From Escherichia phage vB_EcoM_LNA6, in the sequence record OM630585.1: 64,000 bases of DNA. One strand, written 5' to 3'. The notes under the pieces are model-generated. The model worked only from the letters and a program-made list of their open reading frames with translations. It was not told the origin of the DNA and searched no databases. Numbering within the stretch: position 1 is the first letter of the stretch; each line of letters starts with the position of its first letter. The position numbers and the translations under genes were made by a program. Below, in pieces: positions 56,742 to 59,410 of the stretch.

Positions 56742-58157
56742 ATGAGCGAATTATTTAAACATGCGCACCTTCATGCAGGTCGAACTGAAAATGGTGCTGT
56801 AAACCATACTTCATCAATGTCTGCTCTTGTGGACTTTTACAAAGCTGCTGGTTCTAGCCGTAGCAATGTAGAAATCTTACCAGACTTGTTCTACAAAGCT
56901 TTGCATGAGGATGTTGATGTTGCAGTTCGTATTTTACTGCATATGCGAGATGTACGAGAAGGTATGGGTGAGCGTAAAGCTTTCCGAACTGTTTTACTTC
57001 AAGCGATTGAAGATAAAGTTCTAGAGTCTACACAGGTTCTTCGCATTATGGATAAGATTGCAGAGCTTGGTCGCTTTGATGATTTCAAAATCTTCGTGGG
57101 TACTCGTTTCGAGACAGATGCCTTCAAGCATTTAGAAGCAGCATTACTAGACCCTGCAACAGCAGGTTTGGCAGCTAAGTGGTTACCACGAGTCAAACCA
57201 CGTCATAAGCAGTTTGTAAAACGTTTCTGCAAGTTTGCCAACTTGAGTGAGAAAGAGTACCGCACACTGTTGTCTGTACTATCTGATACAGTTGAGCAAA
57301 AAATCTCTGCTAACGAGTTTGGTAAGATTGACTACAGTAAGATTCCTTCACTTGCTGCTGCACGTTACCAAAAACTGTTTAACCGTAAAGATGGAGAGCG
57401 TTACAAAGCTTACATCGAGTCCTTATCAAAAGGTGAGACTAAGATTAACGCTGGTGCTGTTTACCCATACGATGTGATTAAATCTGTCAAGTATGGTAAT
57501 GCAGATGTTGCTAATGAGCAGTGGAAAGCACTACCAAACTGGATGGCAGAAGGTGAAAACATCTTGTGTATGTCTGATGTATCAAGTTCAATGTCTTGGG
57601 TGAATTTTGGCTCCATTACTGCTCTGGATATTGGTGTATCACTTGCCTTGTATGTAGCAGAACGCAATACAGGTTGCTTTAAGAATGAGTTAATGGTTTA
57701 TTCAACAAACCCTCACTTCATCGAACTGAGTGGTGATTTACGAAACCGTCATCGTCAGGTGATGCGACACGTTGAATATGGCTCAACTAACTTACAAGCA
57801 GCTTTTGACCGCATTCTTGAAACAGGTAAAAGAAACAACTTGACTCAGAAAGATATGCCAAGTAAGCTTATCATCTTCTCCGATATGGAGTTCAATCAGG
57901 TTGATGGAGCTAACGGTCGTACAAACTTTGAAGCAATTCAGAGTAAGTACAAAAAAGCTGGATATGAGATGCCACAACTGGTATTCTGGTACTTAGCAAA
58001 CCGTAATGGTACTTGCGAAGTATCTGTTAAGGATAACGGTGTAGCAATGGTATCAGGGTTCTCTCCAGCCACTTTAAAAGCTCTGCTTGGTGGTGAGAAG
58101 TTTGACCCAATCAGTGTAATGCTCAAAGCAGTAATGATTGACCGTTATATCTGGTAA
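56742..58157 (+). CDS. vWA-domain protein, possibly Ro60/TROVE-like
   Basis: 471 aa; MIDAS-like DVSSSMS motif in C-terminal half; directly upstream of tRNA array; TROVE assignment is inference. Confidence 0.45.
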   Translation: MSELFKHAHLHAGRTENGAVNHTSSMSALVDFYKAAGSSRSNVEILPDLFYKALHEDVDVAVRILLHMRDVREGMGERKAFRTVLLQAIEDKVLESTQVLRIMDKIAELGRFDDFKIFVGTRFETDAFKHLEAALLDPATAGLAAKWLPRVKPRHKQFVKRFCKFANLSEKEYRTLLSVLSDTVEQKISANEFGKIDYSKIPSLAAARYQKLFNRKDGERYKAYIESLSKGETKINAGAVYPYDVIKSVKYGNADVANEQWKALPNWMAEGENILCMSDVSSSMSWVNFGSITALDIGVSLALYVAERNTGCFKNELMVYSTNPHFIELSGDLRNRHRQVMRHVEYGSTNLQAAFDRILETGKRNNLTQKDMPSKLIIFSDMEFNQVDGANGRTNFEAIQSKYKKAGYEMPQLVFWYLANRNGTCEVSVKDNGVAMVSGFSPATLKALLGGEKFDPISVMLKAVMIDRYIW

Positions 58158-58175
58158 AAAGTTTTAAAAAGGGTA

Positions 58176-58204
58176 TTGACAATGTGTTTGATACCCTTTA
58201 ATAT
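58176..58204 (+). promoter_or_regulatory. sigma70-like promoter upstream of tRNA array
   Basis: TTGACA, 17-bp spacer, TAATAT. Confidence 0.45.
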
Positions 58205-58322
58205 GTTCTACATAGAAACGAAATGAGAGCTTTTCTAAGATACTGAAAAATATTTTAAAAAAGTTCTTGACAACCACTAAAAAATAATGTTAAAGTGGTT
58301 ACATAGAGTTTGAAAAGTTTAT

Positions 58323-58399
58323 CTCTGTTTAGCTCAGATTGGTAGAGCGTTCCGTTTGGGGCGGTAAGGCCGGAGGTTCAAGTCCTCCAACAGAGACCA
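58323..58399 (+). tRNA. tRNA-Pro (anticodon TGG)
   Basis: Manual fold: acceptor ctctgtt/aacagag, T-arm ggaggTTCAAGTcctcc, anticodon loop ttTGGgg, CCA encoded; anticodon stem has one mismatch. Confidence 0.55.
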
Positions 58400-58406
58400 A
58401 ATTAAT

Positions 58407-58484
58407 GTTCCAGTAGACAAAATGGTATAGTCACCACTCTTTCAAAGTGGATATCTGAGGGTTCAAATCCCTTCTGGAACGCCA
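58407..58484 (+). tRNA. tRNA-Glu (anticodon TTC)
   Basis: Acceptor gttccag/ctggaac, anticodon stem ccact/agtgg, loop ctTTCaa, T-loop TTCAAAT, CCA encoded. Confidence 0.65.
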
Positions 58485-58487
58485 GTT

Positions 58488-58566
58488 TTGACAGAAGACC
58501 AATTACAGCAAACTTAATCTTATTCATCTGAAGGTAAATCGGACAAAGAAGAGATTTGGTCTGGTC
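58488..58566 (+). repeat. tRNA-spacer module (AGAAGACC...ACAGCAA...GGTCTGG), copy 1
   Basis: acagaagaccaattacagcaaac ... ggtctggtc; ends can pair. Confidence 0.5.
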
Positions 58567-58585
58567 ATTAAGAATTGCGGGTATA

Positions 58586-58662
58586 GAGAAAGGGCGTCTC
58601 ACATGTCTCATTAGCATGGTATCGGCAGGTTCGACTCCTGCACCCGCCTCCAATTTTGCAGA
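58586..58662 (+). tRNA. tRNA-Met or Ile2 (anticodon CAT)
   Basis: Anticodon stem catgt/gcatg, loop ctCATta, T-arm gcaggTTCGACTcctgc; 1-72 pair mismatched, start +/-1. Confidence 0.55.
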
Positions 58663-58665
58663 AGA

Positions 58666-58722
58666 CCGTATTCAGCAACAAAATACTTTTTTGCGGATAA
58701 AAGAAAAAACACGGTCTGGCAA
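58666..58722 (+). repeat. tRNA-spacer module, copy 2
   Basis: gcagaagaccgtattcagcaaca ... acggtctggc. Confidence 0.5.
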
Positions 58723-58730
58723 TGTATTAA

Positions 58731-58807
58731 GGTTAGGAAGCACATAAGGTATGTGCGGTCGCCTGTTAAGCGAATGGCACAGGGTTCGAATCCCTGACTA
58801 ACCGCCA
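58731..58807 (+). tRNA. tRNA-Asn (anticodon GTT)
   Basis: T-arm cagggTTCGAATccctg, anticodon loop ctGTTaa, CCA encoded. Confidence 0.55.
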
Positions 58808-58815
58808 AATTAAAT

Positions 58816-58903
58816 GTGTCGTTATCCCGTAGATGGTAGCGGTGGGGACTGTAAATCCCTTGTCATTGAGACTCGGTAGGTTCGACTCCTACACGGCACA
58901 CCA
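58816..58903 (+). tRNA. tRNA-Tyr (anticodon GTA)
   Basis: Acceptor gtgtcgt/acggcac, anticodon loop ctGTAaa, long variable arm, T-loop TTCGACT, CCA encoded. Confidence 0.7.
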
Positions 58904-58908
58904 ATAAA

Positions 58909-58985
58909 GGCTATGTAGTTTAACTGGAGAAAATACTCCCCTGTCACGGGAGATGATGAGGGTTCAAATCCCTTCGTAACCGCCA
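58909..58985 (+). tRNA. tRNA-Asp (anticodon GTC)
   Basis: Anticodon stem ctccc/gggag, loop ctGTCac, T-loop TTCAAAT, CCA encoded. Confidence 0.65.
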
Positions 58986-59046
58986 ATTTTGAGAGGGCTA
59001 TTTAGCCCCTCCCTTAAAGAGTTCTTACGAGTATTCTTTAAAGGAG

Positions 59047-59123
59047 TAGAAGACCAAATACAGCAAGAATGTATGATATTTTCAAGCCAATTTAATTTTG
59101 AAAAATTTAAAACTTGGTCTGGC
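59047..59123 (+). repeat. tRNA-spacer module, copy 3
   Basis: gtagaagaccaaatacagcaaga ... ttggtctggc. Confidence 0.5.
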
Positions 59124-59135
59124 TCAACAAATTTA

Positions 59136-59258
59136 CAGAAGACCGTTTACAGCAAAACTTAAACAATCTGTTTCTCGGTAAAGAAAAGGCGAAGGTTCGA
59201 TTCCTTCACTCGGCAGATGTCGAGTTGGTGTAATGGTAGCACTTAAGATGATAAACAA
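59136..59258 (+). repeat. tRNA-spacer module, copy 4 (contains tRNA-like element)
   Basis: acagaagaccgtttacagcaaaa ... acggtctggt. Confidence 0.45.
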
Positions 59259-59410
59259 CGGTCTGGTAATTATCTTTGTAGATAAGTTATTAAGCTTACC
59301 TGTGAGTATGCGACCACAAAGGGTGAAAGGGTAAATTCTAGATTTAAACCCAAAAATGCACATCGCTACAGACCTTAAGCAAGTCTGGGTAGCTTATCTA
59401 CAAAGATAAT
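59136..59410 (+). ncRNA. candidate structured ncRNA with tRNA-like module (Y-RNA-like?)
   Basis: tRNA-free spacer containing a perfect T-arm (gaaggTTCGATTccttc), a 7-bp acceptor-like stem closed by a tetraloop (actcggc-agat-gtcgagt), a D-arm-like segment (gtgtaatggtagcac) and a long-range inverted repeat gtagataag...cttatctac. Confidence 0.25.

What the first reader, a model, noticed from the sequence alone, without database searches (positions are those of the whole stretch)
56742..59410. Ro60/TROVE-like vWA protein next to a tRNA array containing a tRNA-mimic element
The 471-aa protein has a MIDAS-type vWA motif (DVSSSMS) in its C-terminal half, an architecture shared with Ro60-related proteins; the TROVE assignment itself is unverified. 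About 1 kb downstream, inside the tRNA array, a tRNA-free segment carries a perfect T-arm (gaaggTTCGATTccttc) followed by a 7-bp acceptor-like stem capped by a tetraloop, a D-arm-like motif and a long-range inverted repeat (gtagataag...cttatctac). Bacterial Y RNAs that bind Ro60 orthologs have this kind of tRNA-like module, and their genes usually sit next to the Ro gene. A phage-encoded Ro/Y-RNA-like pair would be unusual.
Basis: inference. Interest (0 to 1): 0.8.

Follow-up and report, generated by a model that had tools for sequence, protein, structure and literature searches.

The report
Phage Ro60-like protein with Y-like RNAs
This Felix-O1-type E. coli phage encodes a ring-shaped Ro60-like RNA-binding protein and, in the gaps of the tRNA gene array just downstream, four small RNAs (one a tRNA mimic) of a widespread RNA family I could not find described, which is always found next to this protein and probably binds it.

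Summary

The element is larger than reported. Four spacer RNAs (E1-E4, 58489-59269) share one module: a closing helix, an unpaired WUWCAGCAA, and a G after the 3' strand. E4 also carries the permuted tRNA-like domain.

The same module lies beside relatives of the protein (27-51% identical) in phages of enterobacteria, Campylobacter, Mycobacterium, Listeria, Staphylococcus, Bacillus, Enterococcus and Fusobacterium, with heavy covariation. Models built only from distant phages recover E1, E2 and E4 (E 6e-4, 0.03, 5.5e-8). A relative lacking the gene lacks the elements. Rfam's YrlA model does not detect E4.

A 2024 preprint already noted that the 97%-identical Bas63 gp130 resembles Ro60, counters the Ppl defence, and might have Y RNAs among the tRNA genes. 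The RNA family appears undescribed. Protein-RNA binding is inferred, not shown.

The parts
56673..56702 (+). Sigma-70-like promoter upstream of the Ro60-like gene (TTGACA, 18 nt spacer, TAAAGT).
   Evidence: Consensus scan, 10 of 12 matches. This is a prediction only.
56742..58157 (+). Ro60-like protein, 471 aa. The N-terminal part (about residues 28-263) is an alpha-helical repeat ring (Pfam DUF2828). The C-terminal part (274-464) is a vWA domain (Pfam DUF7788) with the MIDAS motif D279-x-S281-x-S283, T349 and D381.
58176..58296 (+). Two sigma-70-like promoters (58176-58204 and 58267-58296) ahead of the tRNA/Y-like RNA array. A hairpin at 58168-58199, just after the gene's stop, overlaps the first promoter.
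   Evidence: Consensus scan. This is a prediction only.
58489..58567 (+). E1, a short Y-like RNA between tRNA-Glu and tRNA-Met. Layout: outer stem UGAC/GUCA; internal loop AGA/G; inner stem AGACCAA (58496-58502) / UUGGUCU (58556-58562); unpaired UUACAGCAA (58503-58511).
   Evidence: Fold. Motif search. Covariance model R1, built from 22 elements of non-Ounavirinae phages, gives 31.3 bits, E 6e-4, the top hit in 156 kb.
58656..58722 (+). E2, a short Y-like RNA between tRNA-Met and tRNA-Asn. Layout: outer stem UUGC/GCAA; inner stem AGACCGU (58663-58669) / ACGGUCU (58711-58717); unpaired AUUCAGCAA (58670-58678).
   Evidence: Fold z = -2.4. R1 gives 23.7 bits, E 0.03. R2 gives 23.6 bits.
59044..59125 (+). 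E3, a short Y-like RNA. Layout: outer stem GAGU/GCUC; inner stem AGACCAA (59051-59057) / UUGGUCU (59114-59120); unpaired AUACAGCAA (59058-59066).
   Evidence: Fold. R1 gives 16.3 bits, E 1.4, in the right register; this is borderline on its own. It has the same module as E1, E2 and E4.
59133..59269 (+). E4, the tRNA-mimic Y-like RNA. Layout: outer stem UUAC/GUAA; inner stem AGACCGU (59140-59146) / ACGGUCU (59258-59264); UUACAGCAA (59147-59155); T-arm 59191-59207; closed 7-bp acceptor-like hairpin 59208-59225; D-arm 59228-59242.
   Evidence: Sequence and fold. R2, built from 7 tRNA-like elements of unrelated phages, gives 53.7 bits, E 5.5e-8 over the full length. The acceptor hairpin shows compensatory changes in the L012 orthologue (ACCCUUC/GAAGGGU). 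Rfam YrlA gives no hit; Rfam tRNA matches only the T-arm at 14.9 bits.
59270..59409 (+). E5, a separate structured RNA of unknown role.
   Evidence: Fold z = -5.66. RNAalifold on 6 Ounavirinae predicts 32 pairs, 7 with compensatory changes. An E5-like hairpin is kept in Pectobacterium phage Wc4, which lacks the Ro-like gene, so a link to the protein is doubtful.
58323..59649 (+). Flanking tRNA genes: Pro, Glu, Met, Asn, Tyr, Asp, then the elements, then Lys, Met, Ile. E1-E5 sit 4-8 nt from their neighbours, the same spacing as between tRNAs in the array.
   Evidence: ARAGORN and Rfam tRNA hits.

Best explanation
The window encodes a phage Ro60-type ribonucleoprotein system.

The protein is a remote Ro60 homologue of the DUF2828/DUF7788 branch. 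It has a helical-repeat ring plus a vWA domain with an intact MIDAS site.

Four small RNAs (E1-E4) sit in the spacers of the tRNA array directly downstream. They are probably transcribed with the tRNAs from the promoters at about 58176 and 58267, and cut out by the enzymes that trim the neighbouring tRNAs (inferred).

Each RNA is closed by a helix formed by its two ends. Next to this helix lie a conserved unpaired WUWCAGCAA and a conserved G after the 3' strand. I take this module to be the protein's docking site, playing the role of the Ro-binding stem of Y RNAs (inferred from strict gene-RNA adjacency in many phage lineages).

E4 adds a tRNA-shaped domain, as in bacterial YrlA. By analogy it could attract tRNA-handling enzymes or act as a tRNA decoy (inferred).

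The orthologous protein of phage Bas63 is experimentally an inhibitor of the Ppl anti-phage system. The particle therefore most likely serves counter-defence and/or RNA (tRNA) surveillance during infection. The RNAs would gate, titrate or retarget the protein rather than being strictly needed for Ppl inhibition.

For: The RNA module is real.
- Four copies in the window against 0.09 expected, all folding alike, with outer and inner stems that covary between copies.
- In 70 distant loci, 89 of 295 motif occurrences on the gene's strand have a perfect 7-bp partner followed by G, against 15 expected from shuffles. On the opposite strand the figures are 6 of 232 against 8.4.
- 66 of the 89 lie within 600 nt of the gene and none lies inside it.
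- Among 67 non-redundant elements, all 7 pairs show changes on both sides: 183 cells against 50 in shuffles.
- C.GCAA and the 3' G are invariant in that alignment; this is partly by construction, because elements were selected on the GCAA core and the G.

Cross-lineage membership. Model R1, built without any Ounavirinae sequence, finds E1, E2 and E3 as the three best hits in 156 kb. Model R2 finds E4 at E 5.5e-8 and non-seed members in further lineages, all on the gene's strand.

The same elements lie beside the gene in:
- Klebsiella FBKp34
- Mycobacterium Lolly9, Listeria LP-083-2 and Campylobacter CP81
- Staphylococcus S-CoN_Ph7
- Bacillus Tsamsa, Enterococcus Bill and Fusobacterium Fnu1.

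Co-absence. Pectobacterium phage Wc4 belongs to the same subfamily and has the same tRNA array. It has no such gene (best tblastn E 0.33) and no elements.

Operator-like copies. In some phages the element sits in the gene's own 5' leader. In L016 its interior holds the ribosome-binding site and its 3' strand covers the start codon; in L023 and L071 it ends just before the ribosome-binding site. This placement is typical of sites bound by the encoded protein.

Function. Bas63 gp130, 97.2% identical, counters Ppl (PMC11482910). Repair-type neighbours occur elsewhere: RtcB in the Listeria phage, and RNA ligase plus CCA-adding enzyme in Serratia phage BF.
Against: No experiment shows that the RNAs are expressed or bind the protein.

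Gp130 alone, from a plasmid or inserted into T7, suffices to overcome Ppl (PMC11482910). The RNAs are therefore dispensable for the only known phenotype.

The conserved motif is not the Ro-binding motif of known Y RNAs, and Rfam YrlA does not detect E4.

Pairing in alignment A2 is 100% by the way elements were selected, so only the enrichment test and the covariance-model tests are unbiased.

E3 is only borderline under R1 (E 1.4). Covariance-model E-values come from a shortened calibration.

Serratia phage BF showed no element near its gene with my pattern, and in the T4-like Aeromonas loci (L043, L047, L064) the only element lies 2.4-2.8 kb downstream.
Confidence: 0.68

Rival explanations
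1. The elements are structured RNAs of the tRNA operon, such as processing punctuation, stabilisers or decoys for tRNA-targeting host nucleases. They work without the Ro60-like protein. Adjacency would then only reflect a shared tRNA-related gene module.
For: The elements are packed into the array like tRNAs. Gp130 alone counters Ppl in T7, which has no such RNAs (PMC11482910). E5 and an E5-like hairpin persist in Wc4 without the gene.
Against: Many loci have the element right beside the gene with no tRNA within 6 kb, for example L019, L021, L026 and L031-L036. The elements are always on the gene's strand. Some copies sit in the gene's own leader, over or next to its ribosome-binding site. E1-E4 are absent from the Wc4 array, which lacks the gene.
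Confidence: 0.14
2. The module is mainly a cis-acting operator. The protein binds it to repress its own translation, and the array copies are leftover or titrating copies with no function as free RNAs.
For: Copies sit in the 5' leader of the gene in L016/L017 (KVP40-like Vibrio phages), L020, L023, L071 and L027, and in Fusobacterium Fnu1 and Campylobacter CP81. In L016 the ribosome-binding site lies inside the element and the 3' strand covers the start codon.
Against: In the window the nearest copy starts 332 nt after the stop codon, beyond two predicted promoters and two tRNA genes, so it cannot control this gene in cis. Several copies per genome, and the elaborate tRNA-like domain kept with covariation, argue for free RNAs. 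This rival still implies protein-RNA binding, so it overlaps the main explanation.
Confidence: 0.1
3. E4 is a decayed tRNA gene, or the junction of two tandem tRNA genes. E1-E3 are repeats without function, and the likeness to Y RNA is chance.
For: The region is full of tRNA genes. Chen et al. 2014 warn that tandem tRNAs can imitate YrlA (PMC4201824). Rfam tRNA matches the T-arm.
Against: The strand after the T-arm pairs perfectly with the next 7 nt across a tetraloop, which two different tRNAs would not do. No anticodon arms flank it. The architecture recurs, with covarying acceptor hairpins, in unrelated phages. R2 scores E4 at 53.7 bits, but real tRNA junctions in the window and in Wc4 score only 16-20 bits. 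The motif count is 4 against 0.09 expected.
Confidence: 0.03

Closest known systems
Bas63 gp130 (Escherichia phage JohannRWettstein, MZ501086.1), described in the PhageMaP preprint PMC11482910
   Same: This is the orthologue: 97.2% identical, 471 aa, same position directly upstream of the tRNA array, and the same four spacer elements. The authors noted its structural similarity to Ro60, showed that it counters the Ppl defence system, and guessed that Y RNAs hide among the tRNA genes.
   Different: The preprint names no RNA. The candidate RNAs found here are not among the annotated tRNA genes. They lie in unannotated spacers, which the GenBank record partly covers with small minus-strand ORFs.
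Bacterial Rsr (Ro60) with YrlA/YrlB Y RNAs (Salmonella Typhimurium, Mycobacterium smegmatis; Chen et al. 2014, PMC4201824; Rfam RF02553)
   Same: A Ro60-fold protein is encoded next to several small RNAs. One RNA has a tRNA-like domain in the same permuted order (T-arm, closed acceptor-like stem, D-arm) and is closed by an end-to-end stem. Like M. smegmatis YrlA, E4 has a 7-bp acceptor-like stem. Repair genes (RtcB, RNA ligase) lie nearby in some relatives.
   Different: The protein lacks the Pfam TROVE signature (it is DUF2828/DUF7788). The conserved RNA motif is WUWCAGCAA plus a 3' G, not GNCGAAN0-1G. Window E4 gives no RF02553 hit, and relatives reach only 36-40 bits against a threshold of 69. 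The genes are embedded in a tRNA array.
Thermus phage phiLo Ro60 with Yrl1/Yrl2 (PMC12135203; PDB 9KOP, 9L5Y)
   Different: phiLo Ro60 is a TROVE-domain protein whose RNAs carry the CGAA motif. It shares only about 15% identity with the window protein and has no tRNA array context.
Deinococcus radiodurans Rsr-Yrn1-PNPase (RYPER)
   Different: The order of arms and the binding helix differ. It is a cellular stress system. No PNPase link has been tested here.
Mycobacteriophage 'Ro-like RNA-binding protein' (cluster L, e.g. LeBron gp53, Lolly9 gp54)
   Same: Same protein family, about 33% identical over the full length. Lolly9 has three elements of the same RNA family right after the gene, one of them tRNA-like. 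LeBron gp53 is moderately toxic when overexpressed, and these phages also carry RNA ligase and polynucleotide kinase (PMC13148394).
   Different: The closing helix is UGGAC.../...GUCCA-G rather than AGACC.../...GGUCU-G. There is no large tRNA array. The RNAs are not annotated or discussed in the papers I could read.

Membership tests
Ro60 / TROVE protein family | Ring of alpha-helical (HEAT-like) repeats followed by a vWA domain; overall Ro60 fold. | tested here: met
Ro60 / TROVE protein family | Sequence match to the Pfam TROVE domain (PF05731). | tested here: not met
   No TROVE hit for the window protein at E <= 1 or for any of 40 homologues at E <= 10. Only weak vWA_Ro60 (PF25045) hits appear, in 7 of 40, best 9e-4. 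PDB sequence and profile searches find no Ro60.
Ro60 / TROVE protein family | MIDAS motif (DxSxS...T...D) in the vWA domain. | tested here: met
   D279, S281, S283, T349 and D381 are invariant in alignment A1.
Ro60 / TROVE protein family | Binds Y RNA on the outer surface of the ring and misfolded RNA ends in the central hole. | not testable with these tools
   This needs biochemistry or structures. Only gene-RNA adjacency supports it.
Y RNA / YrlA (Rfam RF02553) | Encoded next to the Ro gene, on the same strand. | tested here: met
   E1-E4 lie 332-1112 nt after the stop codon on the + strand. In distant loci 66 of 89 elements lie within 600 nt of the gene.
Y RNA / YrlA (Rfam RF02553) | The 5' and 3' ends pair to form a closing stem that carries the conserved Ro-binding motif (GNCGAAN0-1G in bacteria, GGUCCGA in animals). 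| tested here: not met
   The end-to-end stem is present and covaries. The conserved sequence, however, is WUWCAGCAA plus a 3' G. No CGAA-type motif is conserved.
Y RNA / YrlA (Rfam RF02553) | tRNA-like domain with T-arm, closed acceptor-like stem and D-arm in that order. | tested here: met
   E4 has all three, at 59191-59207, 59208-59225 and 59228-59242. T-loop UUCGAUU and D-loop GG are present. E1-E3 lack the domain, like YrlB-type RNAs.
Y RNA / YrlA (Rfam RF02553) | Score at or above the Rfam gathering threshold (69 bits). | tested here: not met
   No YrlA hit in the window at E <= 10, even on 181 nt. Relatives in Klebsiella, Mycobacterium and uncultivated phages score 35.8-39.6 bits.
ACAGCAA-stem RNAs next to DUF2828/DUF7788 proteins (family defined here) | Match to covariance models built only from elements of phages outside Ounavirinae. 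| tested here: met
   R1: E1 31.3 bits (E 6e-4), E2 23.7 bits (E 0.03), E3 16.3 bits (E 1.4, borderline). R2: E4 53.7 bits, E 5.5e-8. The Wc4 genome used as control reaches 17.3 bits at most.
tRNA gene or pseudogene | Cloverleaf in normal order with an anticodon arm, detectable by ARAGORN or Rfam tRNA. | tested here: not met
   ARAGORN reports nothing in 58986-59415. Rfam tRNA matches only the T-arm at 14.9 bits, below the threshold of 29.

The most novel reading that the evidence does not exclude
The WUWCAGCAA-stem RNAs would be a previously undescribed and very widespread class of phage Y RNAs. They would be the dedicated partners of the DUF2828/DUF7788 branch of Ro60 proteins in phages of Proteobacteria, Campylobacter, Actinobacteria, Firmicutes and Fusobacteria. 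Forms range from 60-nt hairpins to tRNA mimics, tRNA bodies set inside the stem, and operator copies in the protein's own mRNA. The resulting particle would be a counter-defence or tRNA-surveillance device, and the RNAs would regulate the anti-Ppl activity shown for Bas63 gp130.
Probability: 0.5. Interest if true: 0.8.

Novelty: new variant of a known kind. Interest (0 to 1): 0.68.

Why it matters
Ro60-Y RNA particles are known from animals, bacteria and a few phages. What they do in phages is barely understood.

This work gives concrete RNA partners, with coordinates, to a protein family found in hundreds of sequenced phages: 709 GenBank phage records and at least 2,616 protein clusters. Until now that family was annotated only as 'DUF2828' or 'RNA-binding protein'.

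One member, Bas63 gp130, has just been shown to defeat the Ppl defence system by an unknown mechanism. Knowing the RNAs and their conserved docking module makes that mechanism directly testable through binding assays, RNA deletions and structures. It also helps explain part of the non-tRNA sequence in phage tRNA arrays, and supplies two covariance models for annotating these RNAs. The spacers involved are currently blank or mis-annotated as tiny ORFs.

Tried and rejected
1. Sequence-level links to Ro60. Pfam TROVE, phmmer and a 40-sequence profile against the PDB all found nothing. Only fold comparison worked.

2. Single-sequence AlphaFold gave a useless model (pLDDT 44). It was replaced by the alignment-based model.

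3. Rfam. No family covers E1-E5. Weak 'Dicty_Class_I_RNA' and plastid hits were dismissed as chance.

4. Searching distant loci for the exact 8-mer AGAAGACC. All hits were coding GAA-GAC codons without a pairing partner. The conserved core turned out to be ACAGCAA.

5. A 6-bp version of my descriptor failed on the window's own elements because of a register error, and gave only chance hits. The 7-bp-plus-G descriptor was used instead.

6. Promoter reading of 'TTGACA/TTTACA-GAAGACC'. Rejected because no -10 box follows, the motif is the same in phages of unrelated hosts, and a covarying 3' partner exists.

7. E5 as a fifth binding RNA. Its loop CUUAAGCAA resembles the motif, but an E5-like hairpin persists in Wc4 without the gene, so this is left open.

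8. MAFFT alignment of the tRNA-like elements misaligned the D-arms. Two D-arm types exist (GCUCAG..GGUAGAGC and GUGUAAUGGUAGCAC). The D-arm was therefore left unpaired in model R2.

9. I could not read the supplementary phage list of Chen et al. 2014. I also could not read Burroughs & Aravind 2016 or Sim et al. 2020. An earlier mention of these RNAs there cannot be excluded.

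
Full report
WHAT THE WINDOW IS

The region is 99.2% identical to Escherichia phage LinBro and 96-98% identical to many Felixounavirus genomes. The gene 56742-58157 is annotated in those records as 'RNA-binding protein', 'vWFA protein' or 'hypothetical protein'. ARAGORN finds 26 tRNA genes from 58323 to 63555, all on the + strand.

CHECK OF THE OBSERVATION

The ORF, its DVSSSMS motif, the T-arm (59191-59207), the 7-bp hairpin with tetraloop (59208-59225), the D-arm (59228-59242) and the inverted repeat gtagataag/cttatctac are all present.

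Two corrections are needed.
- The inverted repeat is part of a 22-bp stem that closes a separate 140-nt hairpin, E5 (59270-59409; folding z = -5.66). It does not close the tRNA-like element.
- The tRNA-like element is one of four. E1 (58489-58567), E2 (58656-58722), E3 (59044-59125) and E4 (59133-59269) all begin with AGAAGACCnnWTWCAGCAA. That is 4 matches against 0.09 expected.

All four end with nnGGTCTGG and fold the same way:
- an outer 4-bp stem that differs and covaries between copies (UGAC/GUCA, UUGC/GCAA, GAGU/GCUC, UUAC/GUAA)
- an AGA/G internal loop
- an inner 7-8-bp stem
- the unpaired 9-mer.

THE PROTEIN

Pfam gives DUF2828 plus DUF7788, and PHROG 850 is labelled 'RNA-binding protein'. 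There is no TROVE hit, even among 40 homologues at E <= 10. Sequence and profile searches of the PDB find nothing.

The protein is therefore a remote Ro60 homologue by fold. It is not a member of the Pfam TROVE sequence family. Mycobacteriophage annotators already label relatives 'Ro-like RNA binding protein'.

THE RNA FAMILY

I fetched 80 viral contigs encoding relatives of the protein (39-100% identity), plus annotated GenBank phages. In most distant loci the gene's strand carries, right after the stop codon or just before the start codon, the same module:

5' W-G-R-N4 | WUWCAGCAA | variable interior | N4-Y-C-W | G 3'

The N4 pairs differ from locus to locus.

An unbiased test on 70 distant loci gave these results.
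- On the gene's strand, 89 of 295 motif occurrences have a perfect 7-bp partner followed by G within 240 nt. Shuffles predict 15.
- On the other strand the figures are 6 of 232 against 8.4.
- 66 of the 89 lie within 600 nt of the gene, and none lies inside it.
- 46 of the 70 loci have at least one element within 1 kb.

Most of the remaining loci carry variants such as CUGCAA, UUGCAGCAA or CCGCAA.

In 67 non-redundant elements all seven pairs show double changes, 183 cells against 50 in shuffles. C.GCAA and the 3' G are invariant. Pairing itself is 100% by selection, and the GCAA core and the G were also selection criteria, so I rely and the model tests for significance.

The same elements occur in two or three copies next to the gene in these phages:
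- Klebsiella phage FBKp34
- Mycobacterium phage Lolly9, Listeria phage LP-083-2 and Campylobacter phage CP81
- Staphylococcus phage S-CoN_Ph7
- Bacillus phage Tsamsa and Enterococcus phage Bill.

Fusobacterium phage Fnu1 has one copy.

CROSS-LINEAGE MEMBERSHIP OF THE WINDOW'S ELEMENTS

Model R1 was built from 22 short elements, none from Ounavirinae. It returns E1 (31.3 bits, E 6e-4), E2 (23.7 bits, E 0.03) and E3 (16.3 bits, E 1.4) as the three best hits in 156 kb.

Model R2 was built from seven tRNA-like elements of other phages. It returns E4 full-length at 53.7 bits, E 5.5e-8. True tRNA junctions score 16-20 bits. Over 867 kb of distant loci R2 finds 18 hits, all on the gene's strand, including non-seed members in further lineages.

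Rfam's YrlA model detects only the tRNA-like part of some relatives at 36-40 bits, against a threshold of 69. It does not detect E4 at all.

The acceptor-like hairpin covaries among members. Examples are ACUCGGC/GUCGAGU, ACCCUUC/GAAGGGU, UUCCCCG/CGGGGAA, UCGCUCGG/CCGGGCGA and CCUGCCGC/GCGGCGGG.

CO-ABSENCE

Pectobacterium phage Wc4 is an Ounavirinae member with the homologous tRNA array. Its whole genome has no Ro-like gene (best tblastn E 0.33), and its array has no element.

HOW IT PROBABLY WORKS

Shown: a Ro60 fold, and a conserved structured RNA module tied to the gene.

Inferred: the module is the protein's docking site, as the conserved stem is for Y RNAs. Operator-like copies support this. 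In KVP40-like Vibrio phage contigs (L016) the ribosome-binding site lies inside the element and the 3' strand of the helix covers the start codon of the gene. In L023 and L071 the ribosome-binding site starts right after the element. Fnu1, CP81 and L027 also have a copy just upstream of the start codon.

In the window the RNAs lie behind two predicted promoters and 4-8 nt from neighbouring tRNAs. They would be co-transcribed with the tRNAs and released by tRNA end-processing (inferred).

E4's 12-bp acceptor/T minihelix resembles the part of M. smegmatis YrlA that is cut by RNase P and receives CCA (PMC4201824). Whether this happens here is untested.

PRIOR WORK AND FUNCTION

The PhageMaP preprint (PMC11482910) reports the following for gene 130 of the Felixounavirus Bas63.
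- It counters the Ppl defence system, a single protein with ATPase and PHP domains.
- Gp130 resembles Ro60 structurally.
- Gp130 alone rescues T7 on Ppl hosts.

I confirmed that bas63_0130 is 97.2% identical to the window protein, and that Bas63 has the same four spacer elements. They are unannotated and partly overlaid by small minus-strand ORFs.

The protein's Ro60 likeness and the Y-RNA idea are therefore not new. The RNAs appear to be dispensable for Ppl inhibition.

Related findings: the cluster L homologue LeBron gp53 is moderately toxic when overexpressed (PMC13148394). Thermus phage phiLo Ro60 with its Yrl RNAs binds and dampens host PNPase (PMC12135203). Neighbouring RtcB, RNA ligase and CCA-adding enzyme genes in some relatives fit an RNA-repair or surveillance setting.

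NOVELTY AND VERDICT

I found no description of the WUWCAGCAA-stem RNAs in Rfam 15 or in the searchable literature. Chen et al. 2014 searched only genomes annotated with a TROVE-domain protein. Some key papers and supplements could not be read.

I rate this a new variant of a known kind. It is a Ro60/Y-RNA-type system built on a divergent protein branch with its own RNA recognition module, embedded in a tRNA array, and widespread in phages.

Noticed in passing
window 59743-59778 (context 59665-59896): This is a tmRNA-like tag reading frame, GCA AAC GAC AAT GTT TTT CTG GCA GTA GCT TGA TAG = ANDNVFLAVA**. Compare the E. coli SsrA tag ANDENYALAA. It lies behind a strong promoter-like site (59665-59693), between tRNA-Ile and tRNA-Arg. 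It is conserved in L001-L014 with synonymous and stop-codon changes (GAC/GAT, TGA/TAA). Rfam gives only sub-threshold hits: tmRNA_permuted 32.5 bits against a threshold of 47, and tmRNA 15.3 bits. ARAGORN finds no tmRNA. It may be an unrecognised, perhaps two-piece, phage tmRNA.
   Followed up: partly
window 60443-60525: This is an unannotated tRNA-like sequence. It has a 7-bp acceptor stem (GUGGGAC/GUCCCAU), a T-arm (GGGG-UUCAACU-CCUC), a 3' GCCA, and an anticodon-loop-like CUCCAAA (CCA = Trp). Trp is the one common amino acid missing from the 26 detected tRNAs. ARAGORN misses it, and Rfam gives only tRNA-Sec at 23 bits.
   Followed up: partly
window 59270-59409 (E5): This is a conserved 140-nt hairpin RNA with compensatory changes between Felixounavirus and SUSP1-like phages, and a conserved loop CUUAAGCAA. 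An E5-like hairpin is also present in Wc4, which lacks the Ro-like gene. Its function is unknown.
   Followed up: partly
L082 7003-7116 and L059 8336-8430: These are tRNA/Y-RNA chimeras. In Klebsiella phage FBKp34 a 114-nt 'tRNA-Asp' carries an insert, aaCUUCUuagaGAAGuuUUACAGCAuu, holding the motif. In L059 a normal-order tRNA body (D-arm, anticodon arm, T-arm; Rfam tRNA 55.7 bits, model positions 5-66) has its acceptor stem replaced by the AGGUUCC/GGAACCU-G helix with UUUCAGCAA.
   Followed up: no
L016 5961-6006, L017 ~5960, L020 ~5950, L023 5950-5985, L071 5903-5942: Copies of the element sit in the 5' leader of the Ro-like gene itself. In L016 the interior holds the ribosome-binding site and the 3' strand covers the start codon; in L023 and L071 the ribosome-binding site starts right after the element. 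This suggests translational autoregulation by the protein.
   Followed up: partly
L085 1429-1980 (Listeria phage LP-083-2): A ROOL-like large RNA (Rfam RF03087, 87.4 bits against a threshold of 99.1, E 1.7e-16) lies among tRNA genes about 1 kb upstream of the Ro-like gene. An RtcB-like ligase and an HD phosphohydrolase lie 0.6-1.3 kb downstream.
   Followed up: no
window 59989-60330: A 113-aa ORF lies inside the tRNA array, directly after tRNA-Arg. It was not examined. Insertions of this kind in phage tRNA arrays are often mobile endonuclease genes.
   Followed up: no
L096 12749-13023 (Bas63, MZ501086.1): The GenBank record annotates two small minus-strand hypothetical CDS (bas63_0137 and bas63_0138) over the region that holds E3-E5. 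They are probably spurious calls over RNA genes. LinBro and other records show similar 'hypothetical protein' calls there.
   Followed up: partly
L043 10066-10206, L047 10231-10367, L064 9834-9976: In T4-like Aeromonas phages the tRNA-like Y RNA lies about 2.4-2.8 kb downstream of the Ro-like gene rather than beside it (R2 scores 46-55 bits). Adjacency is therefore not universal.
   Followed up: no
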